Shown: positions 3,089 to 48,680, numbered from the stretch's first letter. The stretch: DNA of 64,000 nt from Betaproteobacteria bacterium (GCA_003820645.1 RPOR01000004.1:6388-70387); one strand, 5' to 3'. The notes: a model not told the origin generated them from the letters alone. Translations and numbers: made by a program.

Positions 3089-3230
3089 GTACTGCCGGCG
3101 CGTTGACAGCGCAACACCGGCCGCGCAGAATCACCCACATCATCACGGGGGCGTTGGCAGACTCCCCGGTTCCAGACGCCCCGCGTCCAAGCGCTGCCTT
3201 CGTGTGGTTCGCTACCGCGAAGGAGAGGTC

Positions 3231-4028
3231 ATGGACGAGGGCATTTCCCCTGAAAAACTGATGGCTGCGCGCAATGGCGCCGCTGCGCCGCTGCTGATTG
3301 ACGTGCGCCGCGAAGCCGCATTCCGCTCCGCACCGGACATGGCGTCCGGTGCATTGCGGCGCGATCCGGCCACCGTCGAAACCTGGGCCGATGAACTACC
3401 TGCCGCAGCCAGCATCGCGGTGTATTGCGTGCACGGCCACGAAGTCAGCCGGAATGTGACCAAAGCCCTGCGCGACCGCGGCCTCAGCGCGCAGTTTGTC
3501 GAAAACGGCATCGAGGAAGGTCTGCGTGCCGCCGGCGTTGAACTGATGGCGAAACCCGTCGACGCCGGGACCCGCTGGATCACCCGCGAGCGCCCGAAAG
3601 TCGACCGCATCGCCTGCCCCTGGCTGATCACCCGTTTTATCGATCGCGATGCCGAGTTCCTGTACGTGCCGTCAGCGGATGTAAAAATAATCGCCGCCGG
3701 GAAAAACGCCATACCGTACGACGTGCCCGACGTGGCATTCTCGCATCACGGAGAACGCTGCAGTTTCGACGCCTTCATCCGGATTTTCCGGCTTGCCGAT
3801 CCGGCGCTGCTGCAACTGGCCGACATCGTGCGCGGTGCCGACACCGGGCATCCGGAAATCGCGCCGCAATCCGCCGGCCTGGTCGCCCTGTCGCTGGGCC
3901 TGTCGCGCCTCATCTCCGCCGACCACGACCAGTTGCAGCAGGGCATGGTCATGTACGATGCGCTCTACCTGTGGTGCAGAGAAGGCCAGGATGAACGGCA
4001 CACCTGGAATCCCGCAGCCTATCGCTGA
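3231..4028 (+). CDS. rhodanese domain / ChrB C-terminal domain fusion protein
   Basis: ATG at 3231 preceded by AGGAGAGG. The N-terminal half is rhodanese-like (LIDVRR...VYCVHGHEVS). The C-terminal half has 'RERPKVDRIACPWLITRFID', typical of the ChrB C-terminal domain. chrA follows directly. Confidence 0.7.
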   Translation: MDEGISPEKLMAARNGAAAPLLIDVRREAAFRSAPDMASGALRRDPATVETWADELPAAASIAVYCVHGHEVSRNVTKALRDRGLSAQFVENGIEEGLRAAGVELMAKPVDAGTRWITRERPKVDRIACPWLITRFIDRDAEFLYVPSADVKIIAAGKNAIPYDVPDVAFSHHGERCSFDAFIRIFRLADPALLQLADIVRGADTGHPEIAPQSAGLVALSLGLSRLISADHDQLQQGMVMYDALYLWCREGQDERHTWNPAAYR

Positions 4029-11884: not shown

Positions 11885-12042
11885 GAGGCGGCGCGAGCCC
11901 GCAGGAGGGACAGGAAATGTAGCGCAATCAGTGGCTTGCGGTCAATGTCGGAGACCGGCGATCGACACGGCAGCGGGGGACACCGCAATGGCATGGACAG
12001 CGCTGCGCACACCGCGCCGCAAAAATCAAACCCGGCCGGGCC

Positions 12043-13260
12043 TCAGGAATTGCGCTGGTAGCGGTCCAATACGGCGCGCGGGATCAGGCCGAGTGTGGCC
12101 AGCGGTTTCAGCGATTCGTCGTTGCTGCGCATGCAGCGTTCCCGGATTGCCAGCAGTGCCTGTGCCGCTGCCGTTTCGTTCCAGAACCAGCGCTCGACTG
12201 CCTTCGGCGCAAGCGCTCCCGGCTGTGCTGCTGCGGCCTCGAAGTAATATGTCCTGATGTCGTCGCAGGCACGTTTGATGGCTGTCCCGGCCCTGATACC
12301 GGAGGTCGGCTCGGGGTGCCCATCAAGAAATGCGGTCACGTGCTGCACGGCGTCGTCGACCGTGGGGCCGAACACACCCATCGTCGTCCGCCCGCGTCGT
12401 ATTCGGGCAAGCTCATACCACGCGGCGAGTTGCGCAATTTCATCGCGCAGCGCGCGCGCCAGCCCGCCCCGAGTGGACGCTCCCGGCGTGAAACTGACCG
12501 GACAGGCGAAGTCTTGTGCGCGATCGCCGGCGGCTGGCGCGTCCTCGGGATAATCCTCCAGCACCGGTCCCGTCGCATGCTCAAACAATGACAGCAATGT
12601 CCGCAGCACCCGTCGCTGGAAATCCGGGTCGTCAGCGGATCCCAATGGCCGGCCCAGCATGAAGGGCACCCACAGCGCACGCGGGGGTTTGATCGCCGCA
12701 GTCTGCTCGCGGATCAGGCTGATCTGCGCGGTCGCGACACCCTCGCGCTCGAGATAATGGCCCAGCGCGCCCACGGCGCACGTGCAGTTTGGTCAGACGG
12801 GGGTCAGCAATACCGCATCCACCCGGTCTTTCTTCAGCAACACCGCCAGTTCGCGGGCCTTGGGTTCGAGCGCGCGGATCGGCGCGGCACCCATGAACGA
12901 ATAGTGGAAATCCGCGACCGCGCCGACCAGACCTGCAGCCTGGAGCTCACGCAGCCGGGCCAATGGAAACACGACATTGATGTCTTCCTGGAATCCGGTG
13001 CGGTCGAAATTGACCGAGACGTGACTCATCATCAGATCCGCAGCCCGGGTGTCACCGGGTATGACCCGGTAGTCCGCGGCTCCGCTGTCAAACAGCCGAT
13101 CACCCCGCACATGCACGCCGGCCGTGGTCACGATCGCCACCCGGCGCTGACGCAATGGGGGGCCAGACTGGAATGGCGTGTCGCCGAAAGCGGGCAGATC
13201 CCGGATCTTGTCCAGGTGGTGCTTTTGTTCGGATTCGGAAAAATCAGTCAATCGCGCCAT
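12043..13260 (-). CDS. glycine/sarcosine/betaine/D-proline reductase protein-B-like selenoprotein (in-frame UGA at 12793-12795)
   Basis: ORFs 12793..13260 and 12043..12774 share one frame (13260-12774=486). The only interruption is TGA, and read-through gives ...DAVLLTPV-U-PNCTCAVGALGHYLEREG.... The N-terminal part resembles the GRDB family. A hairpin follows the TGA, and selA, selB and selC are in the window. Confidence 0.7.
12765..12781 (-). promoter_or_regulatory. candidate bacterial SECIS hairpin for the GrdB-like gene
   Basis: Minus strand: UGA, then 11 nt, then GUGCGCC-GUG-GGCGCGC. The stem is 7 bp including one G-U pair, with a G/U-containing apical loop. Confidence 0.45.
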
Positions 13261-13302
13261 GCATTTCCCCCTGAGTCCGGCGTCGGCCGCTAACGCCGCC
13301 CA

Positions 13303-13917
13303 TTATCGCCGGTGTTTGCCCACGTTCCAGCCGCTTTTGGCGAGGTGTTTCTCGCCGACGTGGATCGGTTCGTCCTCCAGCGGCGTCGCCATGGTGTCGT
13401 TCCACCGGTTCATGAATCCGAACATCGCAACCACGGCCACGATCTCCACGATCTGGCCCTCGTTCCAGTGCTGCTTCAGCTCGGCAAACATCTCGTCCGT
13501 GACCGCATTGGGTTGCGCGGCTCCGGCGATCGCCACTTCCAGTGCAGCGCGCTCGGCATCAGTGAACAGCGGGTGGCTACGGAATTCCCATACCGCCTCC
13601 AGCTTCCTGTCATCGTAACCCAGCCCGAGCGCCGCCCCGGCCGTGTGCGCCATTCAGTAGTGACAGCCGTGCGCGCGGCTGGCGACATGCGCCAGCATGC
13701 GCTTGAATGCGATTGGCACTTCGCTCTCCGGGTCCCACACCGCCGCGGCAAGTTGCGACAGCGCCTGCACCAGTTTCGGCTTGCGCTGCATGATCAACAC
13801 GCTGTTGGGCACAAAACCCAGCACCCTGACATAGGTCTGGAACGCGCCAGCCAGTTCGGGTGTCGTTTCCTGCGGCAACGGTGCCAGTCGCGGATCCGGC
13901 TTTTCGGTTTTCTTCAT
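13303..13917 (-). CDS. AhpD/carboxymuconolactone-decarboxylase-like selenoprotein (CxxU; in-frame UGA at 13654-13656)
   Basis: ORFs 13654..13917 and 13303..13653 are contiguous in one frame across TGA: ...SRAHGCHY-U-MAHTAGA.... This aligns residue for residue with the paralog motif AAGCRYCTAHNAE at 15019..15615, so U replaces the second Cys of CxxC. Confidence 0.75.
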
Positions 13918-13968
13918 GGCTGCGCTGCTCCTGTTTTGAACGATCCGGTTGAATTCGACGAGAAATTT

Positions 13969-14553
13969 TCAGGGGTCGAGACAGCGCAGCATGATTGCAG
14001 CGATATCGGTCAGAGCCGCGCGATCCGGATTCGCTTTGCCGACCAGCCGCAGCCCCTGAATTCCCGACACCAGGAAACGGGCGAGCGATGCCACGTCCGC
14101 ATCGGCGGCAATTTCGCCGCGCGCCTGCGCGCGCGTCAGGGCGTCGCAAAACGTCCCCTCGATGCGCGCCAGGCTCTGCCGCACGCGGGCAACGGTGGCC
14201 CGGTCATGGCCGGCAAGTTCGGCGGCGCAATTGCCGATGAAACAGCCGGCCCGGCCCGGCCCGGCAACGATGCGTTCGATCATTTCGCCGACAAATCCCG
14301 CGACCGCCTCGCGGACCGGCATCGGTTTTGCCAGCGCCAGATTGATGCGCGCAACCGATTCTTCTTCGTAACGGGCCAGCGAGCGATGCAGCAACGCGCG
14401 TTTGCCGCCGAACGCCGCGTAGAGACTGGAGCGGCTCAGGCCCGTCGCATTGCACAAATCGTCGAGCGAGGTCGCCTTATAGCCTTTTGCCCAGAACGCC
14501 TGCATCGCGCGCTCGAGCGCGACATCGACCTCGAATTCACGCGGACGCGCCAT
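13969..14553 (-). CDS. TetR/AcrR family transcriptional regulator
   Basis: 194 aa. The N-terminal HTH 'FWAKGYKATSLDDLCNATGLSRSSLYAAFGGKRAL' is typical TetR. Its start shares one nucleotide with the upstream stop (TGATG). Confidence 0.85.
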   Translation of the reverse strand: MARPREFEVDVALERAMQAFWAKGYKATSLDDLCNATGLSRSSLYAAFGGKRALLHRSLARYEEESVARINLALAKPMPVREAVAGFVGEMIERIVAGPGRAGCFIGNCAAELAGHDRATVARVRQSLARIEGTFCDALTRAQARGEIAADADVASLARFLVSGIQGLRLVGKANPDRAALTDIAAIMLRCLDP

Positions 14554-15002
14554 CAGCGGACCGCGTCAGCCGCGAGCCCCGCGAGCGCCTTCAGCAGATT
14601 GGGTACCACGGCACAGTTGCCGGCATCGTGGCGTTTCGCCAGATACTGCGGGTCGTTATAGCCCAGCCAGACTTGCCCGCCCGCGTCCTGCCACGCCAGC
14701 GCCTTCAGCGGCAAATCGATGCCGCTCGTCTGCGCGCACTCCATCAGCGGTGTGCCGCCCTGCGGATTGCCGAATACCAGCAATTCGGTGGGTCGCAGGT
14801 TTTTGCCGACCTTCTTGGCGCCGGCCGCGTGATCGACCCGCAGGAAGACATTCAGTCCCTTGCCCTTCGCCGCAGCCTCGAGGCGATCCATGGTGTCCTT
14901 GACGCTATGGGGACTCTTCACCGTGATCAGGCCGTCCGCGGCCGAACTCGTGGCAGCAAGCGCCGAGAGCATCAATGCAGCAACGACCGGTAATATTTTC
15001 AT
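14553..15002 (-). CDS. DUF302 domain protein with signal peptide
   Basis: Start taken at MKILPVVAALMLSALAATSSA (ATG 15002, preceded by GGAGA). 'VDHAAGAKKVGKNLRPTELLVFGNPQGGTPLM...DLPLKALAWQD' is a DUF302 signature. Confidence 0.8.
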   Translation of the reverse strand: MKILPVVAALMLSALAATSSAADGLITVKSPHSVKDTMDRLEAAAKGKGLNVFLRVDHAAGAKKVGKNLRPTELLVFGNPQGGTPLMECAQTSGIDLPLKALAWQDAGGQVWLGYNDPQYLAKRHDAGNCAVVPNLLKALAGLAADAVR

Positions 15003-15018
15003 CGTCGTCTCCTGTCGG

Positions 15019-15615
15019 TTATTTTGCATGCACACCGGGCGTCCAGCCGGATGCCGTCAGGTGCTCGCGGGCGAACTGCAAAGGGTGGTCTTCCAGCTGG
15101 GTGGCGAGCGTGTCGTTCCAGCGGTTCATCCAGCCGAACATCGAGATCACCGCGACGATTTCGATGATGGAGTCTTCCGAGTAGTGCTTCTTCAATTCGT
15201 CGAAATGCGCGTCTGTCACCGACGGCGGAGAACCACCGGCCGCCAGCGCCAGACCAAGCGCTGCGCGCTCGGCCGGCGTGAACAAGGGACTCGACTGGAA
15301 CTGCCATAATGCATGCAGTTTCTCGTCTGCCACCTTGCCGCGCTCGACAGTGCTCTCGGCATTGTGTGCCGTGCAATAGCGGCAGCCCGCTGCGTTGCTG
15401 ACGACCTCGGCAATCATGAAACGGAGCGCCGGCGGGATTTCGCCGGCATCCGCCATCACCGCATCGCGGAGTTCACGCACCAGCCTGAATATCCGCGGCT
15501 TGCGGGCAAGCGTCAACCAGCTGTTGGGTACATACCCGCGCTGCTTGCTGGCTTTTTCGAAGTCGGCGGCCAGTTCCGCCAGGCGATCGGCTGGCGCAGG
15601 TGAGATTCGGGACAT
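15019..15615 (-). CDS. AhpD/CMD-like peroxidase-related protein (Cys form, CRYC)
   Basis: 198 aa from ATG 15615, preceded by GGAGGA. It is a paralog of the 13303..13917 protein and ends similarly (MFGWMNRWNDTLAT). The tracked 456-aa ORF over-extends through the divergent promoter region. Confidence 0.8.
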   Translation of the reverse strand: MSRISPAPADRLAELAADFEKASKQRGYVPNSWLTLARKPRIFRLVRELRDAVMADAGEIPPALRFMIAEVVSNAAGCRYCTAHNAESTVERGKVADEKLHALWQFQSSPLFTPAERAALGLALAAGGSPPSVTDAHFDELKKHYSEDSIIEIVAVISMFGWMNRWNDTLATQLEDHPLQFAREHLTASGWTPGVHAK

Positions 15616-15756: not shown

Positions 15757-15897
15757 GGTCCGCCTACCGCGCAATCCGCCGCGGGCGCCCGCCAAAACAT
15801 GGTATGAAGCAGACGAGCAGACTGTAAGGATTCCGCTACCGCGCCGACTGATCAGCCAAATCCCGCTACAGACCCGCGAATTTTCAGGAGCGATTTG

Positions 15898-16863
<966 letters not shown>

Positions 16864-16895
16864 CTCCATTCACCGATGCGGAACAGGCAATCTCC

Positions 16896-18281
16896 ATGAT
16901 CGAGCCGGCATTCGCGATTTATTTCTGGGGCTTCCTGCTGCTCTACGGCGGCGTGATGTACGCCATCTCCCCGCATTCCCGCACCGACGCCAGTTTTTTC
17001 ATCGGCAGCGACGATGCCGGCCGCCCGGCCACCGAGTGGGCGCTGATGTGCAGCATTTTCATCAGCTGGATCTTTGCCAAGTCCGTGACCAACGCCGCCA
17101 ACCTCGGCGCAGCCTACGGCGTGGTCGGCGGACTGGCGTACGCCGCGTACTGGCTGTCGATCCCCGTCGCCGGCATCGTCATTTACTGGCTGCGTACGCG
17201 GCATGGCGCCACCGGACTGGTGTCTTTCATCATCGGCCGCTACGGCCGGCTCGCCGCCCTGGCTTTCACCCTTGCCATCCTGATCCGGCTCTATAATGAA
17301 GTGTGGAGCAACACGGCGGTGGTCGGCGCCTATTACGGTCAGTCCGGCGAATGGACGTTCATCGCTTCCGCACTGCTGTTCACCGCGGCGACGCTGGTCT
17401 ACAGCATCAAGGGCGGGCTGCGCAGTTCCATCGTCACCGATGTCATCCAGGCGGTGCTGTTCGTCTTCGTACTGGGCGTGGTGTTGTTCCTGGTGTTGCC
17501 CAAACACGGCGTGGGCACGCTGCTGGGCGTAGGTGATTTCCGCCTGAGTGCCGGCGTCGACCTGCTGCTGGTGGCGCTGCTGCAGGTGGTGTCCTACCCC
17601 TTCCACGACCCCGTGCTCACCGACCGTGGCTTCATTACCCGCGAAAAACCCATGCTGCGCGCGATGATCGTCGCCGGCGTGCTCGGTTTCCTCTGCATAT
17701 TTGCGTTCAGCCTGGTCGGCGTGCATGCCAAGCTTGAAGGGCTCCCCGCCGGCGACAACATGCCGGGCGCCGTCGCGGTGGCCTTCGGTACTGTTCCCTA
17801 TCTGCTGATGACCGTGGTGATGATCATGGCCGCAGGTTCGACACTGGACTCGACGTTCTCGTCGGTCGCCAAGTCCGTGGGCCGCGAACTGCCGATGCTG
17901 GCGGACCGCACGCCGGGACCGCGCGCTATGGTCATCGGCATCTGGACTATGCTGGCCTTCGCGATCCTCGGCAACCTGCCGATGATCGCCGGCACCGACA
18001 TCCTGAAAGCCACCACCGTCAGCGGCACGATGGTGATGGGCCTTGCGCCGGTGTTCCTGCTGGCACCGCTGGTGAAACATTCACCGTGGAGTTTCCATCT
18101 TGCGTTCTGGCCGGGCGTTGCATTGGGCGTGCTGCTCGCCGCCGGCATGATTCCGCAGTCGTGGGCAATCGGTGACGGCAAATACGCGCTGCTGCTGGGC
18201 ACCAACCTCTACGGGCTCGCGATCTGCGTCGGCGGCTTCCTGCTGCCGCTGACCGTCCAGCGCCTGCGTGCGCCCGGCTAA
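16896..18281 (+). CDS. sodium:solute symporter (SSF)-like permease
   Basis: 461-aa polytopic membrane protein from ATG 16896. The 'GGLRSSIVTDVIQAVLFVFVLG' segment is SSF-like. The upstream part of the tracked ORF overlaps the rSAM 3' end and is discarded. Confidence 0.6.
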   Translation: MIEPAFAIYFWGFLLLYGGVMYAISPHSRTDASFFIGSDDAGRPATEWALMCSIFISWIFAKSVTNAANLGAAYGVVGGLAYAAYWLSIPVAGIVIYWLRTRHGATGLVSFIIGRYGRLAALAFTLAILIRLYNEVWSNTAVVGAYYGQSGEWTFIASALLFTAATLVYSIKGGLRSSIVTDVIQAVLFVFVLGVVLFLVLPKHGVGTLLGVGDFRLSAGVDLLLVALLQVVSYPFHDPVLTDRGFITREKPMLRAMIVAGVLGFLCIFAFSLVGVHAKLEGLPAGDNMPGAVAVAFGTVPYLLMTVVMIMAAGSTLDSTFSSVAKSVGRELPMLADRTPGPRAMVIGIWTMLAFAILGNLPMIAGTDILKATTVSGTMVMGLAPVFLLAPLVKHSPWSFHLAFWPGVALGVLLAAGMIPQSWAIGDGKYALLLGTNLYGLAICVGGFLLPLTVQRLRAPG

Positions 18282-18291
18282 GCCTGCCACC

Positions 18292-19284
18292 ATGCAACCC
18301 GGACGCAGCTGCCCGCTGCATTACCGCTACCCGCCGGCATCGCTGAACCGGCCACCGGAAATCAGCGCCGACACGCTGTATGTGATCGGCGGGCTGTATG
18401 GCAACCAGCCGGCATTGGCTGCCATCGCTGCGCTCGCGGCAGCAGAGCGAGCCCCGGTTACGCAGGTATTCAACGGCGATTTCAACTGGTTCAACCGCGA
18501 TGCCATCGGCTTCAAGAACATCAACACCGCGGTATTGGCGCACCATGCGCTGCGCGGCAATGTCGAAACCGAACTCGCCGGCGAAGGCGATGCAGCCGGC
18601 TGCGGCTGCGCCTACCCCGACCATGTCAGCGATGCCGACGTTGACCGCTCCAATGCGATGCTGGCGCAGTTGCGTGCTACCGCCCGCAGCTTTCCGGATT
18701 TGCGCAAGCGGCTGGCCACTCTGCCGATGAACCTGGTTGCTGAGGTGGGCGGCCTGCGCATTGCCATCGTGCACGGTGACTGCGAGTCGCTGGCCGGCTG
18801 GACTTACGATGAATCCGCGCTGACCTACGCCGCAGGCCTTGCCGCTGCGGCCGCACATTTCACCGCGGCGCGGGCACGGTTCATCGCCAGCAGCCATACC
18901 TGCCTGCCGGTCGCGCTGCGGCTCGACACGGTACAGGGTAATGGTGCGCTGTTCAACAACGGCGCCGCCGGCATGCCGAACTTTGCCGGCACGCAATTCG
19001 GCGTCATCACCCGCATCGCTACTACACCGGCACCGCCCGCGGCGGCGCTGTACGGCACGGTGATCGACGGCGTACATGTCGATGCCATGGCAGTGCACTA
19101 CGACCACCCGCGGTGGCTGGCCGATTTTCTCGCCAACTGGCCGGCGCACAGTGCAGGACACCTGTCCTATTACCAGCGGATCAGCAACGGGCCGCGCTAC
19201 GGGCTCCACTGGGCGATGCGCGCCGGCATCCATCTCAATACGACGCTGCTGCGCAAACTGCGGGCGGGCGGGGACATCCAATGA
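18292..19284 (+). CDS. metallophosphoesterase-like protein (degenerate motif I)
   Basis: 'FNGDFNWF', 'AIVHGDCES' and 'SSHTCLP' resemble calcineurin-like phosphoesterase motifs II-V. The first motif reads 'YVIGGLYGN' and lacks D-x-H. Confidence 0.5.
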   Translation: MQPGRSCPLHYRYPPASLNRPPEISADTLYVIGGLYGNQPALAAIAALAAAERAPVTQVFNGDFNWFNRDAIGFKNINTAVLAHHALRGNVETELAGEGDAAGCGCAYPDHVSDADVDRSNAMLAQLRATARSFPDLRKRLATLPMNLVAEVGGLRIAIVHGDCESLAGWTYDESALTYAAGLAAAAAHFTAARARFIASSHTCLPVALRLDTVQGNGALFNNGAAGMPNFAGTQFGVITRIATTPAPPAAALYGTVIDGVHVDAMAVHYDHPRWLADFLANWPAHSAGHLSYYQRISNGPRYGLHWAMRAGIHLNTTLLRKLRAGGDIQ

Positions 19285-21413
19285 GCAAAAGCAAGCTGCT
19301 GGTATCTGCGCTGATCATCGCCGGCATCGTCGCGTTTTTCGTGTTCGACCTGAAGCAGTATTTCACGCCGGACTATTTCCAGGCCCAGCGGGCGACGATA
19401 GACGCCGCGGTAAAGTCCCATCCGGTGCGCACTGCACTGCTGTTTTTTGTCACCTATGTCACGGTAACCGGACTGTCGCTGCCGGGGGCGGCGATCATGA
19501 CGCTGGCGGGTGGCGCGGTATTCGGCCTGTTGTGGGGCACGGTGATCGTGTCGTTCGCCTCGACCCTCGGCGCCACGCTGGCATTCCTCGCCTCGCGCTT
19601 CCTGCTGCGCGACTGGGTGCAGCAGCGCTTCGGCAACAAGCTGCAGCCGATCAACGACGGCATCGCCCGCGACGGCGGCTTCTATCTGTTCGCGCTGCGG
19701 CTGGTACCGGCGTTCCCGTTTTTCGTGATCAACCTGGTGATGGGCCTCACCGCTATCCGCACCTGGACTTTTTACTGGGTCAGCCAGATCGGCATGTTCG
19801 CCGGCACTGTCGTTTACGTCTACGCCGGCACGCAGCTTGGCGAGTTCCGGATTTCGGCGGGACTGCTGTTCGCCTTTGCGCTGCTGGGCGTGTTTCCGCT
19901 GGCAGCCAAGAAGCTGCTGGACGCACTGAAGGCGCGCAAGGTCTATGCCGGCTGGACACGCCCCGTGCGATTCGACCGCAACCTGGTCGTCATCGGCGCC
20001 GGATCTGCAGGACTCGTTTCATCCTACATCGCCGCGGCGGTCAAGGCCAAAGTCACGCTGGTCGAAAAACACAAAATGGGCGGCGACTGCCTGAACACCG
20101 GCTGCGTACCCTCGAAGGCGTTGATCAAGTCGGCGAAGCTGGTTGCAACGATGAAACACGCGGCCGATTACGGCCTGAAAAATGCGCAGGTGGAGTTTGA
20201 TTTCGCGGAAGTGATGGAGCGCGTGCAGCGCGTGGTGCGCGAGGTCGAACCGCATGATTCAGTCGAGCGCTACACCGCTCTGGGCGTTGAGTGCATCACC
20301 GGCACGGCAAAAATCACCTCGCCTTGGTCGGTGGAGATTGCCGACGATGCCGGAATGCGCACGCTGACCACCCGCGGCATCATCATCGCCGCCGGCGCAC
20401 GCCCGTTCGTGCCGCCGATCCCCGGCATTGAGGAAACGGGTTACCTGACCTCGGATACGGTGTGGAAGCTGCGCGCACTGCCGAAACGCCTGGTCGTGCT
20501 CGGCGGCGGCCCGATCGGCGCCGAACTCACCCAGTGTTTCGCCCGACTCGGCGCCACAGTCACCCAAGTCGAAATGCTGCCGCGGATCATGATCCGCGAA
20601 GACCCTGAGATTTCCGAGATGGTGGTGCAGCGGTTCCGCGAGGAAGGCATCGACGTGCTGGTCAACCACAAGGCGCAGCGCTGCGCCGTCGAAAACGGCG
20701 AGAAGGTGCTGTACTGTGAATCCGGCGCCAACACCGTGCGCATCGTGTTCGACGAACTGCTCTGCGCCGTCGGCCGCGTCGCCAACACCACGGGTTACGG
20801 CCTCGAGGAACTCGGCATTCCGGTAACCGGGTCACGCACCGTCGAAGTCAATGAGTTCATGCAGACGAAGTACCCGAACATCCTCGCCTGCGGCGACGTC
20901 GCCGGACCGTACCAGTTCACCCACACCGCGGCGCACACGGCCTGGTATGCGGCGGTCAACGGCCTGTTTGGTGGCTTCAAAAGGTTTCGTGCTGACTTCT
21001 CCGTGATCCCCTGGGCCACCTTCACCGATCCGGAAGTTGCTCGCGTCGGCCTCAACGAGACCGAAGCGAAGGAGAAAAACATTCCGTACGAAGTCACCAC
21101 CTACGGCATCGACGACCTCGACCGTGCCATCGCCGACGGCACCGCGCACGGTGTCGTCAAAGTGCTGACCGTGCCCCGCAAGGACAAGATCCTCGGCGCC
21201 ACGATCGCCGGCGAACACGCGGGCGATTTGATCACCGAATTCGTCACCGCGATGAAACACGGCATCGGGCTGAACAAGATTCTCGGCACCATCCACATCT
21301 ACCCGACGCTGGCCGAAGCCAACAAATACGTCGCCGGGAACTGGAAACGCGATCACGCGCCTAAAAGGTTACTGGAATGGGTGAAGAGGTTTCATGCGTG
21401 GCGGCGTAACTGA
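19281..21413 (+). CDS. TVP38/TMEM64 (DedA-like) membrane domain fused to FAD-dependent pyridine nucleotide-disulfide oxidoreductase
   Basis: ATG 19281 overlaps the upstream stop (ATGA). The N-terminal 230 aa are SNARE-associated/DedA-like (LRLVPAFPFFVINLVMG). The C-terminal part has 'VVIGAGSAGL' and the redox-active 'GGDCLNTGCVPSK' of the lipoamide dehydrogenase/mercuric reductase class. Confidence 0.8.
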   Translation: MSKSKLLVSALIIAGIVAFFVFDLKQYFTPDYFQAQRATIDAAVKSHPVRTALLFFVTYVTVTGLSLPGAAIMTLAGGAVFGLLWGTVIVSFASTLGATLAFLASRFLLRDWVQQRFGNKLQPINDGIARDGGFYLFALRLVPAFPFFVINLVMGLTAIRTWTFYWVSQIGMFAGTVVYVYAGTQLGEFRISAGLLFAFALLGVFPLAAKKLLDALKARKVYAGWTRPVRFDRNLVVIGAGSAGLVSSYIAAAVKAKVTLVEKHKMGGDCLNTGCVPSKALIKSAKLVATMKHAADYGLKNAQVEFDFAEVMERVQRVVREVEPHDSVERYTALGVECITGTAKITSPWSVEIADDAGMRTLTTRGIIIAAGARPFVPPIPGIEETGYLTSDTVWKLRALPKRLVVLGGGPIGAELTQCFARLGATVTQVEMLPRIMIREDPEISEMVVQRFREEGIDVLVNHKAQRCAVENGEKVLYCESGANTVRIVFDELLCAVGRVANTTGYGLEELGIPVTGSRTVEVNEFMQTKYPNILACGDVAGPYQFTHTAAHTAWYAAVNGLFGGFKRFRADFSVIPWATFTDPEVARVGLNETEAKEKNIPYEVTTYGIDDLDRAIADGTAHGVVKVLTVPRKDKILGATIAGEHAGDLITEFVTAMKHGIGLNKILGTIHIYPTLAEANKYVAGNWKRDHAPKRLLEWVKRFHAWRRN

Positions 21414-21439: not shown

Positions 21440-21700
21440 CACTGTTTTTGAAGTCCCCCCTTGTGAGCCGCCGAGCAGCACAGCCAAACCGGGGGGCAGT
21501 CGGCGAGCACTGTCTGAGCCCTCGCATGGTGTTCGCGAGGGCGAGTTGCGCAGCCGCCCGGTTTGGCGAGCACCGCAGGGAAGTCCAAAGGACCAGCGAG
21601 CCAGGGTCGACTTCTTTTGGTTACTTTTCTTGGCGAAGCAAGAAAAGTAACCAGCCGCCGGGCTGCTCCCGGCGAAGTTGCGCTTCTCATGAAACATAAC
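21440..21700. repeat. structured intergenic element with nested inverted repeats
   Basis: GCCAAACCGGG (21483-21493) pairs with CCCGGTTTGGC (21557-21567). CCCTCGC (21519-21525) pairs with GCGAGGG (21535-21541). A perfect 15-bp stem, TGGTTACTTTTCTTG-gcgaag-CAAGAAAAGTAACCA, spans 21618-21653. Confidence 0.45.
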
Positions 21701-21721
21701 TATTTGTTTTTATTAGTAATT

Positions 21722-22552
21722 ATGAAAAGACTCCTCTTGACCCTGCTGCTGTCAGCACTCTCGCTGACCGGCGCTGCCGAATCCTTCGACCACGACCACA
21801 AAGCCTGGTCCACGCTGCTGAAAAGGCACGTCGTGCTGATCGACGGCGGCAAAGCCTCGCAAGTCCGTTACGCCGGCTTCGCGCAAGACCGCAACGCACT
21901 GAAGACCTACCTCGGCGCGTTATCCGGAGTCACCCAATCCGAATTCAACGGCTGGACCAGGCCGCAACAGATGGCATTCCTGATCAACGCCTACAACGCC
22001 TACGCGGTGGAGAAAATCCTGACACGTTATCCCGACATCCAGTCGATCTGGGATTTCGGCAAGATTTTCGGCAACCCATTCAAGGACAAATTCTTCACGC
22101 TGCTCGGCCGCGAGTTCTCGCTGGACAGGATTGAACACGACACCCTGCGCAAACCCGGCGCCTACAGCGAACCGCGCGTGCATTTCGCCGTCAACTGCGC
22201 CTCGGTGGGTTGCCCGATGCTGCGCGAGGAAGCCTATGTCGCGGAGCGCCTGGAACCGCAGCTGGAGGAACAGACGCTGCGCTTTCTGTCCGACCGCAGC
22301 CGCAACCGTTACAACCCACAGGCCAACGCGCTGGAGGTATCCGCAATATTCAAATGGTTCAGCGAGGACTGGACCAGCGGTTATCGCGGTTTTGACGGCA
22401 ATGGCATCGCCATGCAGTCAAGGGAGCAGTTCTTCGCCAAATACGCGAGCCTGCTGGCCGACCAACAGGCAGAGCGGAATGCGATCACGGCACGCAAGGC
22501 CAGCCTCCGCTTCCTGGATTATGATTGGGCCCTGAACGACGCGAAACGGTAG
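21722..22552 (+). CDS. DUF547 domain protein with signal peptide
   Basis: MKRLLLTLLLSALSLTGAAE signal. 'FLINAYNAYAVEKIL' and 'HFAVNCASVGCPML' are DUF547 hallmarks. Confidence 0.75.
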   Translation: MKRLLLTLLLSALSLTGAAESFDHDHKAWSTLLKRHVVLIDGGKASQVRYAGFAQDRNALKTYLGALSGVTQSEFNGWTRPQQMAFLINAYNAYAVEKILTRYPDIQSIWDFGKIFGNPFKDKFFTLLGREFSLDRIEHDTLRKPGAYSEPRVHFAVNCASVGCPMLREEAYVAERLEPQLEEQTLRFLSDRSRNRYNPQANALEVSAIFKWFSEDWTSGYRGFDGNGIAMQSREQFFAKYASLLADQQAERNAITARKASLRFLDYDWALNDAKR

Positions 22553-41702: not shown

Positions 41703-43106
41703 ATGGTGAATCCAGCCGCAGCCGCGCGTCGCGCGTTGCCATCGCTGGACCGCCTGCTCGGCAGCACGGCGGTGGCAGGGCTCATTGCGGCGCATGGCCG
41801 CAGCCGCGTAACCGAAGCCCTGCGCGCAGCACTCGAAGCCGAGCGCGCGCGGCTGGCCGCACCCGGGGCCGCCGCCTACGACGAAGCCCGTTTTCTGCAC
41901 GCCTGTGCCGGCGCACTGCACAGTTCCGCTGCACCGTCGCTGAAACCCGTATTCAATTTGACCGGCACCGTGCTGCACACCAACCTCGGTCGTGCCGTGA
42001 TGCCGCAGGTCGCGGCCGAGGCGGTGATGGCCGCAATGATCCGTCCGGTCAATCTCGAATTCGAGCTGGCGACCGGTGCCCGCGGCGAGCGCGACAGTCA
42101 TGTCGAACGCTGGCTGAAGCAGCTGACCGGCGGCGAGAAGGCCGTTGCCGTCAACAACAACGCTGCGGCCGTGTATCTCGCCCTGAACACGCTGGCCCTG
42201 CGCAAGGAAGTGCTGGTCTCGCGCGGCGAACTCATCGAAATCGGCGGCGCGTTCCGCATCCCCGACATCATGGCCCGTGCCGGAGCCAAACTGGTCGAGG
42301 TCGGCACCACCAACCGCACGCACCTGAAGGATTTCGCCGAGGCGATCACCCCGCGCACTGCGGCCATCATGAAGGTGCACACCAGCAATTACGTGGTGCA
42401 GGGCTTCACCGCCAGCGTGCCCGAACCGGAACTTGCCCGGCTTGCCCACGCGCACCAGTTGCCGTTCATCGTCGACCTGGGCAGCGGCACGCTGATCGAT
42501 CTCGAACACTACGGACTGCCGCACGAACCGACGCCGCGGGAAACGCTGGCGCACGGCGCCGATGTCGTCACCTTCAGCGGCGACAAGCTGCTCGGCGGAC
42601 CCCAGGCGGGATTGCTGGTCGGCCGCCGCGACCTGATGGCACGCATCGCCAAGAATCCGATGAAGCGCGCACTGCGCCTCGACAAACTGACGCTGACGGC
42701 GCTCGACGCAGTGCTGCGCCTCTACCTGCATCCGGAACGGCTGCACGAGGCGCTGCCGGCGCTGCGGATGCTGACCCGTGCCACCGACGAGATCGCTGCA
42801 CAGGCAGCGCGCCTCGCACCCCAGGTCGCCGCTGCACTGGGGGATGCCTGGCGCGTCGCAATCGTGCCCTGCAAAAGCCAGATCGGCAGCGGTGCGCTGC
42901 CGGTCGACGCGCTGCCCAGTGCCGGCCTGGCGATGACACCAGCCGCCAGGAAGAAAACCGATGTCGGTCCGCTCGCCGCGGCCTTCCGCGCGCTGCCGGT
43001 GCCGGTGATTGGCCATATCAAGGACGGCGCGTTGATCCTCGACCTGCGCTGCCTGGATCACGAGGATGAATTTGTCAGCCAGCTACAGGGGCTACGCCTC
43101 AAATAG
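41703..43106 (+). CDS. selA: L-seryl-tRNA(Sec) selenium transferase
   Basis: 467 aa. '[16 protein letters not shown]', '[19 protein letters not shown]' and '[17 protein letters not shown]' match SelA end to end. Confidence 0.9.
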
Positions 43107-43184
43107 TCAGATGGTTTTCATAATGTCCCGCCAGATAAACAGCAGCCTTCAAAAAACTGGAGTACGCCCAAATGCAAGGCGCAC

Positions 43185-43235
43185 GAAATTTTGCGCAGTG
43201 CCGCATACTCGATGTATGCAAGCCAGCAAAATTTC
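43185..43235 (+). promoter_or_regulatory. nested inverted repeats in the selA-selB spacer
   Basis: GAAATTTTGC (43185-43194) pairs with GCAAAATTTC (43226-43235). These enclose GCATAC-tcgat-GTATGC (43203-43219). The spacer is 179 nt and comparatively AT-rich. Confidence 0.35.
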
Positions 43236-43285
43236 GGGCAACGCAGCAGTTGGGATGAAATCCGGCTTTTGGAAGGAATAACCGG

Positions 43286-45307
43286 ATGATCATTGCCACC
43301 GCAGGCCATATCGACCACGGCAAAACGCTGCTGGTCAAAACCCTGACCGGCACCGACACCGATCGCCTGCCCGAGGAAAAGGCGCGCGGCATCTCCATCG
43401 ACCTCGGTTTCGCCTATCTGCCGCTCGACGGCGGCGGCCTGATCGGCTTCGTCGACGTGCCCGGCCACGAGCGCTTCATCCGCAACATGCTGGCCGGCGT
43501 ATCGGGCATCGATTTCGCGCTGCTGATCGTCGCCGCCGACGACGGGGTGATGCCGCAGACCATCGAGCACCTGCAGATCCTCGACCTGCTGCATGTGGCC
43601 CGCGGCACTGCGGTGATCACCAAGATCGACCGCGTCGATCCGGCACGCATCGATGAAGTGCGCGCCCAGGTGCAGGCACTGCTGGCGCCGACCACGCTGG
43701 CCGGCGCGACCATCCATCCGGTATCGGCGGTGAGCGGCGCCGGCATGGCCGAATTGAAAACGCTGCTGCTGGACGCCGCCACCGCGCAGCACCGGCGCCG
43801 TGCCGAAGGCCAGCACCTGCGCTACGCAATCGACCGTGCCTTCAGCATTGCCGGCAGCGGCACCGTGGTCACCGGCACGGTATTCAACGGCACGGTGCAT
43901 ACCGGCGACAAGCTGGTGATCTCGCCCGCCGGGCGGGAAGTGCGGGTGCGGGGCATCCAGATTCACGGCAAAGCTGCGGAACAGGCGCGCGCCGGTGAAC
44001 GCTGCGCACTGAACCTGACCGGCGCCGATGTCGAAGCGGTGCGCCGCGGCGACTGGGTCATGGCCGCCGCGATCCACCGCCCGACGCGCCGGCTCGACGT
44101 ACGCCTGAGCGTGCTGCCGGGAGAGGCCCGTGCACTGAAACACTGGACGCCGGTGCACCTGCACCTCGCCACCGCCGATGTCACCGCGCGCGTATCGCTG
44201 CGGCGCGGCGACGCGCTGGCGCCGGGCAGCGGCGGCATCGCCCAACTGGTACTCGATGAACCTGTGGCGGCACTGCACGGCGACCGCTTCATCCTGCGCG
44301 ACCAGTCCTCCACGCGCACCCTCGGCGGCGGCAGCATCATCGATCCGCTGCCGCCCACCGCCCGCCGCAGCAAGGCGCGCGATGCGGAGCTCGCTGCGCT
44401 CGAGGCCGCAGACCCGGACACGGCGCTCGCCGCATTGTCGGCCAACGACAAACGCCCGCTCGATCCGGCCCATTTCGAAGCCATTTTCAACGTGCTGCCC
44501 GAAGTGGCCGGTGCCGCCTATGCCAAAGCCGGGCTGGTGCCGCTGGGCAAGGACCGCCAGATCGCCATCCGCCAGCAGCGGCTCGATGCGCTGCGGGCGA
44601 CGATCACGAGCAAAGTCCAGGCCTTTCACCAGGCACACCCGCAGGCGCCGGGCATGGACGTCGAAGCCTTGCGCACCGCACTCGCGCCCGAGCTCGATGC
44701 CGACGCCTTCGGCCATGTGCTGCGCCTGCTCGCCGACCAGCGCGTCATCGAGATCCACAGTTCGCTGGTGCGCAAGCGGGGACATGACACCACCGCCAAC
44801 AGCGCCGATGCACAGCTGTGGGAACTGGTACAGCCGGCACTGGCTGCCGCCGGCTTCAATCCGCCGCCACTGCGCGAACTCGCGCCGCAGCTGAAACTGA
44901 AAGATGCAATCCTCAAGGATTTCGTCTACCGCCAGATGAAGGCCGGCAAGCTCTACCGCGTCGGCGCCGAACGTTTCTATCCGAAGCCGACCATGGCCAC
45001 GCTCGCAGCAACCGCCCACGCCACCGCGGCACAACAGCCCAACGGTCTGTTCACCGCAGCACAATACCGCGATGCCACCGGCATCGGCCGCACGCTCGCG
45101 ATTGAAATCCTCGACACGCTGGACGGTCTGACCGTCACCCAGCGTGTGGGCGACCAGCGCAAGATGCGCAAGGATTTCGTACCCATCCTCGGCGCCGCCG
45201 AACCCGCGCCACCGCCTGTCCCCGGGACCGCCGCCAAAGCGCAGCCGCAGAAGGCCGCGGCGCAAAAGCCGCAGCAACGCCCACCGTTTCGCAACAAACG
45301 TTACTGA
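43286..45307 (+). CDS. selB: selenocysteine-specific translation elongation factor
   Basis: '[44 protein letters not shown]...VDVPGHERF' is a G-domain identical in layout to SelB. Winged-helix C-terminal domains follow, then about 45 aa of Pro/Ala/Gln/Lys-rich tail. Confidence 0.9.
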
Positions 45308-45316
45308 GAGCACTTC

Positions 45317-48585: not shown

Positions 48586-48680
48586 GGAAGGGAATCGCTC
48601 CCGGTGGGGCGGCCGGACTTCAAACCCGGTAGGGGCCGCGAGCGGTCCTGTGTGGGTTCGACTCCCACTCTCTTCCGCCA
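48586..48680 (+). tRNA. selC: tRNA-Sec (anticodon UCA)
   Basis: 95 nt: GGAAGGGAATCGCTCCCGGTGGGGCGGCCGGACTTCAAACCCGG...GGTTCGACTCCCACTCTCTTCCGCCA. It is near-collinear with E. coli selC. It has an 8-bp acceptor stem (one G-U pair), anticodon TCA at 48620-48622, a long variable arm and an encoded CCA. Confidence 0.9.

What the first reader, a model, noticed from the sequence alone, without database searches (positions are those of the whole stretch)
13303..13917. AhpD/CMD-like protein with a CxxU redox motif, and a Cys paralog 1.1 kb away
ORFs 13654..13917 and 13303..13653 abut across a single TGA in one frame. The junction reads GCHY-U-MAHTAG. The paralog at 15019..15615 reads GCRY-C-TAHNAE at the equivalent place, so U replaces the resolving Cys of the AhpD-type CxxC. 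A Sec form and a Cys form in the same operon make a useful natural comparison. I could not find a clean SECIS hairpin by eye. Only weak GC-rich pairings such as CGGCC...GGCUG lie 13-35 nt downstream, so the recoding element is unresolved.
Basis: partly seen in the sequence, partly recalled or inferred. Interest (0 to 1): 0.7.

Follow-up and report, generated by a model that had tools for sequence, protein, structure and literature searches.

The report
AhpD-like selenoprotein gene, SECIS found
The two abutting reading frames are one gene for a small redox protein that reads a UGA stop codon as selenocysteine; this kind of selenoprotein has been known since 2005, so it is a well-supported but ordinary find.

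Summary
Window 13303..13917 (-) is one 204-codon gene interrupted only by TGA at 13654..13656, and the junction reads GCHY-U-MAHTAG.

The TGA aligns without gaps to the second Cys of the CxxC motif in the 198-aa paralog (48% identity) and in 165 Cys homologs. Fifty homologous genes in other genomes keep TGA at exactly this column. Both halves are under purifying selection.

Its 7-bp core forms in all 48 distinct TGA-form sequences but not in Cys homologs that encode the same peptide. selA, selB and tRNA-Sec lie in the same window.

The protein belongs to the AhpD-like (COG2128/TIGR01926, CxxU) selenoprotein family described in 2005. The closest solved structure is the debrominase Bmp8.

- Sec replaces the attacking Cys (Cys133 of M. 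tuberculosis AhpD), not the resolving one.
- The neighbouring paralog is a deep outgroup. Better Cys comparators, up to 81% identical, exist elsewhere.
- "Same operon" is not shown.

The next gene (12043..13260) is a second, PrdB-like selenoprotein. Verdict: a real new member of a known kind, of modest interest.

The parts
13303..13917 (-). Complete selenoprotein gene: 204 codons plus TAA stop, CMD/AhpD-like fold, C85-H-Y-U88 redox motif
   Evidence: sequence and translation; Pfam CMD, 38 bits against a cutoff of 23, residues 47-129; full-length relatives 57-94% identical in 80 genome loci
13654..13656 (-). UGA codon 88, read as selenocysteine
   Evidence: Aligned to Cys in the paralog and in 165 Cys homologs. 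TGA is kept in 50 homologous genes and in all 13 full-length orthologs compared codon by codon
13663..13665 (-). Cys85 codon (TGT), the first residue of CxxU and the likely resolving thiol
   Evidence: TGC/TGT is invariant in this column in all homologs
13621..13643 (-). SECIS-like hairpin starting 10 nt after the UGA: C14-G36, G15-U35, G16-C34, C17-G33, C18-G32, G19xG31 mismatch, G20-C30, G21-U29, G22-C28, (C23-G27), G-rich apical loop
   Evidence: -14.8 kcal/mol, 73% of the ensemble; Sec forms -14.6 against Cys forms -7.7 kcal/mol; 96% of cells paired, C-G to U-A compensation
13928..13932 (-). Shine-Dalgarno AGGAG, 10 nt before the ATG at 13917. There is none before the internal ATG at 13653
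   Evidence: Read directly
15019..15615 (-). Cys paralog (198 aa, GCRYCTAHNAE), CMD family, a deep outgroup of the Sec clade
13969..14553 (-). TetR-family regulator directly upstream, 51 nt before the selenoprotein start
   Evidence: TetR_N and TetR_C_13. Conserved upstream neighbour
14553..15035 (-). DUF302 protein with an N-terminal signal-like segment, lying between the Cys paralog and TetR
12043..13260 (-). Second selenoprotein gene, 42 nt downstream: PrdB/GrdB-like, 405 aa, TGA at 12793..12795 (TPV-U-PNCTC), hairpin at 12765..12781
12028..12043 (-). Terminator-like hairpin with a T run immediately after the PrdB-like stop
   Evidence: a pattern match only
41703..43106 (+). selA (selenocysteine synthase)
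   Evidence: TIGR00474, 571 bits against a cutoff of 268
43286..45307 (+). selB (Sec-specific elongation factor that binds SECIS)
   Evidence: TIGR00475, 419 bits against a cutoff of 242
48586..48680 (+). tRNA-Sec (anticodon UCA)
   Evidence: ARAGORN; Rfam RF01852, 75.9 bits

Best explanation
Window 13303..13917 (-) is a single functional gene for a 204-residue selenoprotein of the AhpD-like / carboxymuconolactone-decarboxylase (CMD) fold.

Recoding (inferred from established bacterial Sec decoding). During translation, the UGA at codon 88 is read as selenocysteine. The hairpin at 13621..13643, which starts 10 nt after the UGA and has a G-rich apical loop, recruits SelB-GTP-Sec-tRNA(Sec). selA, selB and tRNA-Sec are all encoded about 30 kb away in the same window.

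Chemistry (inferred, not shown). The product carries a Cys85-x-x-Sec88 centre followed by His91 at the start of the catalytic helix. Sec occupies the position of the attacking Cys of M. tuberculosis AhpD (Cys133). The selenolate would attack an oxidised or electrophilic substrate, such as a protein sulfenate or disulfide, a hydroperoxide, or, as in its closest solved relative Bmp8, a carbon-bound halogen. Cys85 would then resolve the adduct into an intramolecular selenenylsulfide, which a cellular dithiol system re-reduces.

Context. In this lineage the gene sits behind a TetR regulator and in front of a second, PrdB-like selenoprotein. This suggests ligand-induced expression and possibly a shared redox pathway.

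Evolution. Sec arose from Cys once inside this Burkholderiales-centred subfamily, and there have been a few reversions.
For: In-frame TGA aligned to Cys:
- Paralog match: 48% identity, E 9e-62, no gap near the motif.
- 50 genes carry TGA and 45 carry TGC/TGT in the same column across 80 genome loci.
- All 120 best full-length database proteins have Cys there, at 81% identity or less. Genomes nevertheless hold 86-94% identical TGA forms, so gene callers are splitting the Sec forms.

One domain spans the TGA (Pfam CMD, residues 47-129).

Purifying selection on both sides. Codon differences from 13 orthologs are 394 synonymous to 126 non-synonymous upstream, and 515 to 185 downstream, with TGA kept in all 13.

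SECIS:
- At least 6 of 7 core pairs form in all 48 distinct Sec-form sequences (7 of 7 in 35 of them). Among 45 Cys forms that encode nearly the same peptide the commonest count is 3 of 7.
- Local MFE is -14.6 +/- 2.1 against -7.7 +/- 2.8 kcal/mol, Mann-Whitney p about 1e-13.
- 96% of cells are paired, against 31-64% when the partner columns are slid. C18-G32 changes to U-A in 4 sequences.
- The apical loop is CGGCG, CGUCG or GGUCG. [quoted passage not shown]

Other support:
- Machinery: tRNA-Sec, selA and selB.
- A Shine-Dalgarno sequence precedes only the first ATG.
- A second gene 42 nt downstream shows the same pattern of conserved TGA plus hairpin.
- Family precedent: AhpD-like COG2128/TIGR01926 CxxU selenoproteins (PMC1088965, PMC2398784, PMC13188914).
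- Position of Sec: the second Cys, Cys133, of MtAhpD makes the cross-link to AhpC (PMC6626918).
Against: - There is no direct evidence of selenium incorporation or of expression.
- In the window's own sequence the hairpin has a G-G mismatch and is only marginally better than GC-rich shuffles (z = -2.2 for 27 nt, not significant in longer windows). The case for it rests on comparison.
- Covariation is thin: one pair shows double changes and two pairs are invariant. The sequences are also related, so the statistics overstate independence.
- No Rfam family matches.
- All NCBIfam '(seleno)protein' models score below their cutoffs (TIGR01926: 67.6 against 81.8).
- The substrate is unknown. The Glu of the AhpD proton relay is not at the expected spacing. 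No ahpC or bmp genes are nearby.
- Which of the two residues attacks first may differ between family members. In B. thailandensis AhpD the first Cys matters more (PMC6626918).
Confidence: 0.9

Rival explanations
1. The gene is a pseudogene, or a sequencing or assembly error: a CMD gene inactivated by a nonsense mutation at a Cys codon (TGC/TGT to TGA is a single base change).
For: A single base separates TGC/TGT from TGA. Gene callers treat the locus as two fragments: no full-length Sec form appears among the top database proteins.
Against: The same TGA occurs in 50 genes from about 40 independent assemblies. Synonymous changes outnumber non-synonymous ones about 3:1 on both sides of the TGA. 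A hairpin specific to the TGA forms follows it. No other stops or frameshifts are present.
Confidence: 0.02
2. The locus is a split gene. Translation terminates at UGA and re-initiates at the overlapping AUG (UGAAUG), giving 87-aa and 116-aa polypeptides that assemble into a CMD fold lacking the second redox residue.
For: The stop and an ATG are directly adjacent. Some termination at UGA is expected whenever selenium or SelB is limiting.
Against: The Met after the Cys/Sec position is present in 117 of the 120 Cys homologs listed and in most Cys-form genes, so the ATG is not an adaptation to a split. There is no Shine-Dalgarno sequence before it. The split would remove the residue that is invariant Cys elsewhere. 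The conserved hairpin and the Sec machinery in the window would have no explanation.
Confidence: 0.03
3. UGA is read through as a standard amino acid (Trp, Cys or Gly), either by near-cognate suppression or by a reassigned code, and no selenium is involved.
For: Cys or Trp insertion at UGA occurs at low level in bacteria when selenium is scarce (general knowledge).
Against: UGA is used as an ordinary stop in this window, for example by selB at 45305..45307 and by TetR at 13969..13971, so the code is not reassigned. A dedicated tRNA-Sec, selA and selB are present. The hairpin has the position and loop expected for SelB recruitment.
Confidence: 0.03

Closest known systems
AhpD-like selenoprotein family (COG2128 / TIGR01926, CxxU motif; Zhang, Fomenko & Gladyshev 2005; 'AhpD-like 1' in the GOS survey; listed in BSepDB 2026)
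   Same: It has the same fold family (Pfam CMD) and the same CxxU motif, with Sec at the second Cys of CxxC. There are widespread Cys homologs and a bacterial SECIS hairpin directly after the UGA. The best NCBIfam hit is TIGR01926 (PMC1088965, PMC2398784, PMC13188914).
   Different: It scores below the TIGR01926 cutoff (67.6 against 81.8 bits) and far below every NCBIfam '(seleno)protein' model. It belongs to a Burkholderiales-centred subclade with the signature H-G-C-H-Y-U-M-A-H-T-A-G. That subclade includes tandem Sec paralogs and, in the window's lineage, a TetR / PrdB-like selenoprotein neighbourhood. The originally described members were marine metagenome reads.
Bmp8, tetrabromopyrrole debrominase of marine Pseudoalteromonas/Marinomonas (PDB 6OHI, 6OHJ)
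   Same: It is the closest solved structure: E 3.9e-29, 33% identity over 178 aligned positions, covering nearly the full length of both proteins. The G-C-x-Y-C-x-x-H motif is in register. Bmp8 is proposed to dehalogenate by oxidising its cysteines to a disulfide (PMC5577590).
   Different: Bmp8 has Cys-Cys, not Cys-Sec. It sits in the bmp halogenated-pyrrole biosynthesis cluster, and no halogenase or other bmp gene is near this locus. Dehalogenase activity here is untested.
Mycobacterium tuberculosis AhpD (alkylhydroperoxidase D, reductant of AhpC)
   Same: It shares the CMD/AhpD helical fold and a CxxC-type redox centre at the start of a helix, followed by a His. The second position, Cys133, is the one that attacks the partner (PMC3141380, PMC6626918).
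   Different: Sequence similarity is only remote. M. tuberculosis AhpD itself was not among the PDB matches at E <= 1; other AhpD-like structures such as PA0269 matched at E about 4e-08. The His lies at +3 rather than +4. No Glu lies 12 residues before the first Cys (R73 here; read). No ahpC is adjacent. The protein has a single-domain 204-aa architecture.
GrdA/GrdB and PrdB selenoprotein reductases of Clostridia (for the neighbouring gene and the pairing)
   Same: The downstream gene matches Pfam GRDB and TIGR04483 PrdB over residues 35-227. It has Sec in a U-x-x-C motif at the equivalent place. A CxxU protein beside a UxxC protein recalls GrdA beside GrdB (PMC13188914).
   Different: All scores are far below the family cutoffs (98 against 300 bits). 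The protein carries an extra C-terminal region of about 180 residues with no Pfam match. No prdA, prdC, grdA or grdC is nearby. The host is a proteobacterium (its closest relatives are Burkholderiales MAGs), not an amino-acid-fermenting Clostridium. The CMD gene is a facultative neighbour.

Membership tests
Bacterial selenoprotein gene (UGA-Sec recoding) | In-frame UGA aligned to Cys in homologs | tested here: met
   the column holds TGA in 50 genes, and Cys in 45 genes and 120 database proteins.
Bacterial selenoprotein gene (UGA-Sec recoding) | Coding constraint continues on both sides of the UGA | tested here: met
   394 synonymous to 126 non-synonymous changes upstream and 515 to 185 downstream; one CMD domain spans the UGA.
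Bacterial selenoprotein gene (UGA-Sec recoding) | SECIS stem-loop immediately downstream of the UGA, with a small apical loop containing G | tested here: met
   the hairpin at 13621..13643 is conserved in all Sec forms and absent from Cys forms, and the loop is CGGCG, CGUCG or GGUCG. SelB binding was not tested.
Bacterial selenoprotein gene (UGA-Sec recoding) | Genome encodes selA, selB, selC (tRNA-Sec) and selD | tested here: inconclusive
   selA, selB and tRNA-Sec are present in the window. selD was not found in the 64 kb, and the rest of the genome is not available.
Bacterial selenoprotein gene (UGA-Sec recoding) | Selenium is actually incorporated into the protein | not testable with these tools
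   This needs 75Se labelling or mass spectrometry.
CMD / AhpD-like superfamily (Pfam PF02627) | Domain score above the Pfam gathering threshold | tested here: met
   38 bits against a cutoff of 23 for the Sec protein, and 42.1 bits for the paralog.
AhpD-like selenoprotein family, TIGR01926 'peroxidase-related enzyme' / COG2128 | Score above the curated TIGR01926 cutoff | tested here: not met
   67.6 bits against a cutoff of 81.8. It is the best-scoring model and covers residues 17-182 of 204. The protein is therefore a relative or outlier subfamily, not a member by NCBI's threshold.
AhpD-like selenoprotein family, TIGR01926 'peroxidase-related enzyme' / COG2128 | CxxU motif, with Sec at the second Cys of CxxC | tested here: met
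   The motif is as listed for the family in PMC1088965 and PMC13188914.
Canonical AhpD (AhpC reductant, M. tuberculosis type) | Proton-relay residues E-x11-C-x-x-C-x3-H | tested here: not met
   From, residue 73 (12 residues before Cys85) is Arg, and the His is at +3 (H91) rather than +4. The HMMER alignment to PA0269-type proteins puts Thr92 opposite the relay His.
Canonical AhpD (AhpC reductant, M. tuberculosis type) | Genetic linkage to ahpC | tested here: not met
   The neighbours are TetR, DUF302, a PrdB-like gene, xseB and ispA. No peroxiredoxin was seen in the flanks examined.
Bmp8-type reductive debrominase | Full-length sequence homology with the catalytic Cys pair in register | tested here: met
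   E 3.9e-29, 33% identity over 178 positions.
Bmp8-type reductive debrominase | Location in a bmp-type halogenated-pyrrole or phenol biosynthetic cluster, or demonstrated dehalogenation | tested here: not met
   No halogenase, CYP450 or carrier-protein genes lie nearby. Activity is not testable here.
PrdB/GrdB selenoprotein B family (neighbouring gene 12043..13260) | Score above the curated cutoffs (TIGR04483 at 300 bits, TIGR01918 at 65.45 bits) | tested here: not met
   98.3 and 48.9 bits. Only the Pfam GRDB match passes (34.8 against 22). The U-x-x-C motif is in register.

The most novel reading that the evidence does not exclude
The AhpD-like CxxU selenoprotein and the adjacent PrdB-like UxxC selenoprotein may form a TetR-controlled two-selenoprotein redox module that has not been described. 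The two genes recur next to each other in different gene orders, and often beside an ArsS-like radical-SAM gene, a DUF302 gene and a Cys-type CMD paralog. One possibility is a GrdA/GrdB-like reductase pair. Another is a selenium-dependent version of the Bmp8 reaction: a bacterial CMD-fold reductive dehalogenase, or organo-metalloid-processing enzyme, that has converged on the Sec chemistry of iodothyronine deiodinases.
Probability: 0.12. Interest if true: 0.6.

Novelty: new member of a known kind. Interest (0 to 1): 0.3.

Why it matters
For annotation, this gene and dozens of its orthologs in Burkholderiales genomes are split into two fragments by gene callers. No full-length Sec form appears among the closest proteins in a 5.8-billion-sequence collection. 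No curated NCBIfam selenoprotein model reaches its cutoff on it. The TGA column, the H-G-C-H-Y-U signature and the hairpin defined here would allow these genes to be called correctly.

For biology, the subfamily gives a clean natural series for asking what Sec buys over Cys in a CxxC redox centre. There was one Cys-to-Sec gain, several apparent reversions up to 81% identical to the Sec form, and co-varying His residues at positions -5 and -2. Its homology to the debrominase Bmp8 and its pairing with a second selenoprotein give testable leads to a function, which is unknown for the whole AhpD-like selenoprotein family. None of this changes current understanding, because selenoproteins of this type have been catalogued since 2005.

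Tried and rejected
- Single-sequence folding of 71-nt and 141-nt stretches around the UGA gave energies no better than shuffles (z -0.36 and +1.02). The isolated 27-nt hairpin reached only z -2.2. In this GC-rich sequence a lone fold cannot identify the SECIS, and only the Sec-versus-Cys comparison did.
- Rfam found nothing at the locus at gathering thresholds, or at E <= 10 over 12650..13750.
- I looked for a conserved operon partner among the more distant Sec forms. Their neighbours (a family that looks like pyridoxamine-phosphate oxidase, a pirin-like family, a UvrA-like ATPase family, TctC/Bug-like receptors) vary and give no functional clue. These names are my reading of the cluster representatives and were not scanned against a family library.
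- I scanned the window for further in-frame-TGA genes. A GC3 filter failed, missing the two real ones. A codon-usage score then ranked only 13654-6 and 12793-5 as convincing. The other high scorers are ordinary stops between adjacent same-frame genes.
- The Bmp8 mechanism papers (El Gamal 2016, Chekan 2019, Agarwal 2017) and Haft & Tolstoy 2025 are not held. I could not establish which Bmp8 Cys attacks the halogen, or whether this neighbourhood has been described.
- Canonical AhpD membership is rejected: the relay Glu and the His spacing are not met, and no ahpC is nearby.
- The pseudogene, split-gene and code-reassignment readings are rejected on comparative grounds.
- I did not run a structure prediction. 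The sequence match to a solved structure is already strong, and the tool does not return coordinates that could settle which residue is exposed.

Full report
**1. The observation**

On the minus strand, ORF 13654..13917 (87 codons, ATG start) and ORF 13303..13653 (116 codons) are in the same frame. A single TGA at 13654..13656 separates them. The uninterrupted translation is 204 residues with GCHY*MAHTAG at the junction. An AGGAG lies 10 nt before the first ATG. Nothing similar precedes the ATG that directly follows the TGA.

The paralog at 15019..15615 (-) is 198 aa with GCRYCTAHNAE. BLASTP of the fused protein against it gives 48% identity and E 9e-62. The only gap lies downstream of the motif, so the TGA falls on the second Cys of CxxC. 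Both proteins match Pfam CMD (PF02627) above threshold. In the Sec protein the domain covers residues 47-129, so it straddles codon 88.

**2. Is it more than chance?**

A scan of one genome per species returned 80 loci encoding relatives that are 57-94% identical.
- In those loci plus the window, 50 genes have TGA in exactly this column and 45 have TGC or TGT. The flanking residues are conserved in both groups: (K/R)RxxAHVASRAHGC(H/R/Q)Y-[U/C]-MAHTAG.
- Thirteen full-length orthologs were compared with the window gene codon by codon. All keep the TGA and have no other stop. Synonymous differences outnumber non-synonymous ones on both sides: 394 to 126 upstream and 515 to 185 downstream.
- This excludes a pseudogene or a sequencing error.
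- In a 5.8-billion-protein collection, the 120 best full-length hits all have Cys and reach at most 81% identity. The 86-94% identical TGA orthologs seen in the genomes are missing, which suggests gene callers split them.

**3. The recoding element**

Folding the window sequence alone is uninformative in this GC-rich context. The z-scores are -0.36 and +1.02 for 71 and 141 nt, and -2.2 for the isolated 27-nt hairpin. Comparison is decisive.

Counting from the T of TGA, nucleotides 16-22 pair with 28-34 in every TGA form.
- At least 6 of 7 pairs form in all 48 distinct sequences, and all 7 form in 35 of them. In 45 Cys forms that encode almost the same peptide the commonest count is 3 of 7.
- Local folding energy (nt 13-38) is -14.6 +/- 2.1 against -7.7 +/- 2.8 kcal/mol, Mann-Whitney p about 1e-13. 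The sequences are related, so this p-value overstates independence.
- On a 36-sequence alignment, 96% of cells are paired, against 31-64% when the partner columns are slid.
- C18-G32 becomes U-A in four sequences: Ala GCC to GCU together with Arg CGG to Gln CAG. Two pairs vary by wobble.
- The apical loop is CGGCG, CGUCG or GGUCG. This fits the published description of bacterial SECIS elements: directly downstream of the UGA, with a small apical loop containing G (PMC1088965).

In the window and its closest relatives an Arg-to-Gly change (CGG to GGG) creates a G19-G31 mismatch. There the helix is extended at its base by C14-G36 and G15-U35, through the Thr codon ACG. The resulting hairpin at 13621..13643 (-) has -14.8 kcal/mol and takes 73% of the ensemble. 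Rfam has no matching family.

**4. The machinery**

The same window encodes:
- tRNA-Sec at 48586..48680;
- selA at 41703..43106;
- selB at 43286..45307.

UGA is otherwise used as a stop, for example by selB itself and by the TetR gene, so the code is not reassigned. selD was not found in the 64 kb. It may lie elsewhere in the genome.

**5. What the protein is**

The best NCBIfam model is TIGR01926 'peroxidase-related enzyme', at 67.6 bits against a cutoff of 81.8. The models labelled '(seleno)protein' (NF053654, NF041238) score far below their cutoffs.

TIGR01926/COG2128 is the family known in the literature as 'AhpD-like' selenoproteins with a CxxU motif.
- It was first reported from the Sargasso Sea (27 sequences, PMC1088965).
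- There were 299 in the GOS survey (PMC2398784).
- It is listed in the 2026 review (PMC13188914) and in BSepDB (PMC13326102).

The closest solved structure is the debrominase Bmp8 (6OHI): E 3.9e-29, 33% identity over 178 positions, with the G-C-x-Y-C-x-x-H motif in register. Bmp8 is proposed to remove bromine reductively by oxidising its cysteines to a disulfide (PMC5577590).

Similarity to canonical AhpD is remote. The relay Glu is missing at the expected spacing (Arg73 here), the His is at +3 rather than +4, and no ahpC is nearby.

**6. Which residue is replaced**

In M. tuberculosis AhpD the second Cys of CxxC (Cys133) forms the cross-link with AhpC Cys61, and Cys130 is partly buried (PMC6626918). 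The proton relay is described in PMC3141380. Sec here replaces that second position. That also fits the general rule that Sec replaces the catalytic nucleophile. The same paper reports that in B. thailandensis AhpD the first Cys matters more, so the assignment remains an inference.

The Sec forms carry a distinctive signature:
- His at U-5 in 49 of 50 Sec forms, against 28 of 165 Cys forms;
- His at U-2 in 33 of 50 Sec forms, against 1 of 165 Cys forms.

**7. Evolution**

I built a neighbour-joining tree of 105 sequences, without support values. All Sec forms fall in one large clade nested within Cys forms, and parsimony infers a Cys root and five changes. About four Cys lineages lie inside the Sec clade and look like reversions. 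One of them is P0001 (81% identical), which is sister to the window's group.

Several genomes carry two tandem Sec copies (L019, L022, L023, L025, L027, L032). The window's own Cys paralog is a deep outgroup with its own 79-96% identical orthologs. It is therefore a poor 'natural comparison', and P0001-P0008 are better.

**8. Context**

Five co-directional genes with short gaps run as follows:
- CMD(Cys), 15019..15615;
- DUF302, 14553..15035;
- TetR, 13969..14553;
- CMD(Sec), 13303..13917;
- a 405-aa PrdB/GrdB-like gene, 12043..13260.

A terminator-like hairpin follows at 12028..12043.

The last gene is itself a selenoprotein. It has an in-frame TGA at 12793..12795 in TPV-U-PNCTC. It matches Pfam GRDB and aligns with PrdB, though below the NCBIfam cutoffs. 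The TGA is conserved and is followed by a GUGCGCC-GUG-GGCGCAC hairpin at +15..+31 in many genome and metagenome loci.

The order TetR, CMD(Sec), PrdB-like, xseB, ispA recurs in at least 14 genome loci. Elsewhere the CMD(Sec) gene lies after the PrdB-like gene (L083, L084, L088), or divergent from it (L093), or is absent (L082, L085, L089, L090). L001 has CMD(Sec) without the PrdB-like gene. The linkage is thus recurrent but facultative. That is suggestive of a shared pathway, not proof of one. 'Same operon' for the Sec and Cys paralogs is not established.

An ArsS-like radical-SAM gene (TIGR04167, Cys form) and a solute symporter are transcribed divergently and also recur in these neighbourhoods. 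More distant Sec forms have unrelated neighbours.

**9. Mechanism and confidence**

Shown by the data:
- one gene, with a conserved UGA at a Cys column;
- coding constraint on both halves;
- a hairpin specific to the UGA forms, in the right place;
- Sec machinery present in the window.

Inferred:
- SelB-dependent Sec insertion;
- a Cys85/Sec88 selenenylsulfide redox cycle in which Sec attacks;
- TetR-controlled expression.

Unknown: the substrate. Candidates are peroxide or AhpC-type reduction, disulfide reduction, Bmp8-like dehalogenation, or service to the PrdB-like partner.

I put 0.9 on the selenoprotein reading. The pseudogene, split-gene and non-Sec read-through alternatives each get about 0.02-0.03.

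**10. Novelty**

This is a new member, arguably a new subclade, of a selenoprotein family catalogued since 2005. What is added here:
- a comparatively defined SECIS;
- the correction of which Cys is replaced;
- the evolutionary pattern of one gain with reversions;
- the adjacent PrdB-like selenoprotein.

Interest is modest at 0.3. The most novel reading not excluded is a two-selenoprotein module or a Sec-dependent Bmp8-like dehalogenase (probability about 0.12).

Noticed in passing
window 12043..13260 (-); TGA at 12793..12795; hairpin at 12765..12781: A second selenoprotein gene lies 42 nt downstream. It is PrdB/GrdB-like, 405 aa, with the motif TPV-U-PNCTC and a C-terminal region of about 180 residues with no Pfam match. 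The TGA and a GUGCGCC-GUG-GGCGCAC hairpin are conserved in many genome and metagenome loci.
   Followed up: partly
window 15895..16863 (+) and 16644..18281 (+): An ArsS-like radical-SAM gene (TIGR04167 'arsenosugar biosynthesis radical SAM (seleno)protein', 458 bits, Cys form here) and a sodium:solute symporter-family gene are transcribed divergently from the CMD/DUF302/TetR cluster. ArsS-like genes recur beside the CMD and PrdB-like genes in many related loci.
   Followed up: partly
window 41703..46225 (+) and 48586..48680 (+): selA and selB are followed directly by a thioredoxin-reductase-like gene (45317..46225), with tRNA-Sec 2.4 kb further on. No formate dehydrogenase gene was seen next to them, which differs from the selA-selB-selC-fdhA arrangement described for Betaproteobacteria in PMC1794560. 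No selD hit was found in the window.
   Followed up: partly
loci L019, L022, L023, L025, L027, L032: These genomes carry two Sec-containing CMD paralogs, each with its own TGA and hairpin. They are tandem in four of the loci (L022, L023, L025, L027) and flank the PrdB-like gene in L019 and L032.
   Followed up: partly
window 13660..13671 (-), residues 83-86; all Sec-form loci: There is a sequence signature coupled to Sec. His at U-5 occurs in 49 of 50 Sec forms against 28 of 165 Cys forms. His at U-2 occurs in 33 of 50 against 1 of 165. The sequences are not phylogenetically independent, and the functional meaning is unknown.
   Followed up: partly
window 19113..21410 (+): This is a fusion of a VTT/DedA-type membrane domain with a pyridine nucleotide-disulfide oxidoreductase and its dimerisation domain, 766 aa in all. 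A DUF547 gene follows at 21563..22552.
   Followed up: no
window 3146..3197 (+): An Rfam chrB-b RNA motif (RF03086) scores 54.2 bits against a gathering score of 36.5, upstream of the ORF at 3204..4028.
   Followed up: no
window 14553..15035 (-): The DUF302 protein has a signal-peptide-like N-terminus (MKILPVVAALMLSALAATSSAADG). It is conserved between the Cys-type CMD gene and TetR in related loci.
   Followed up: no
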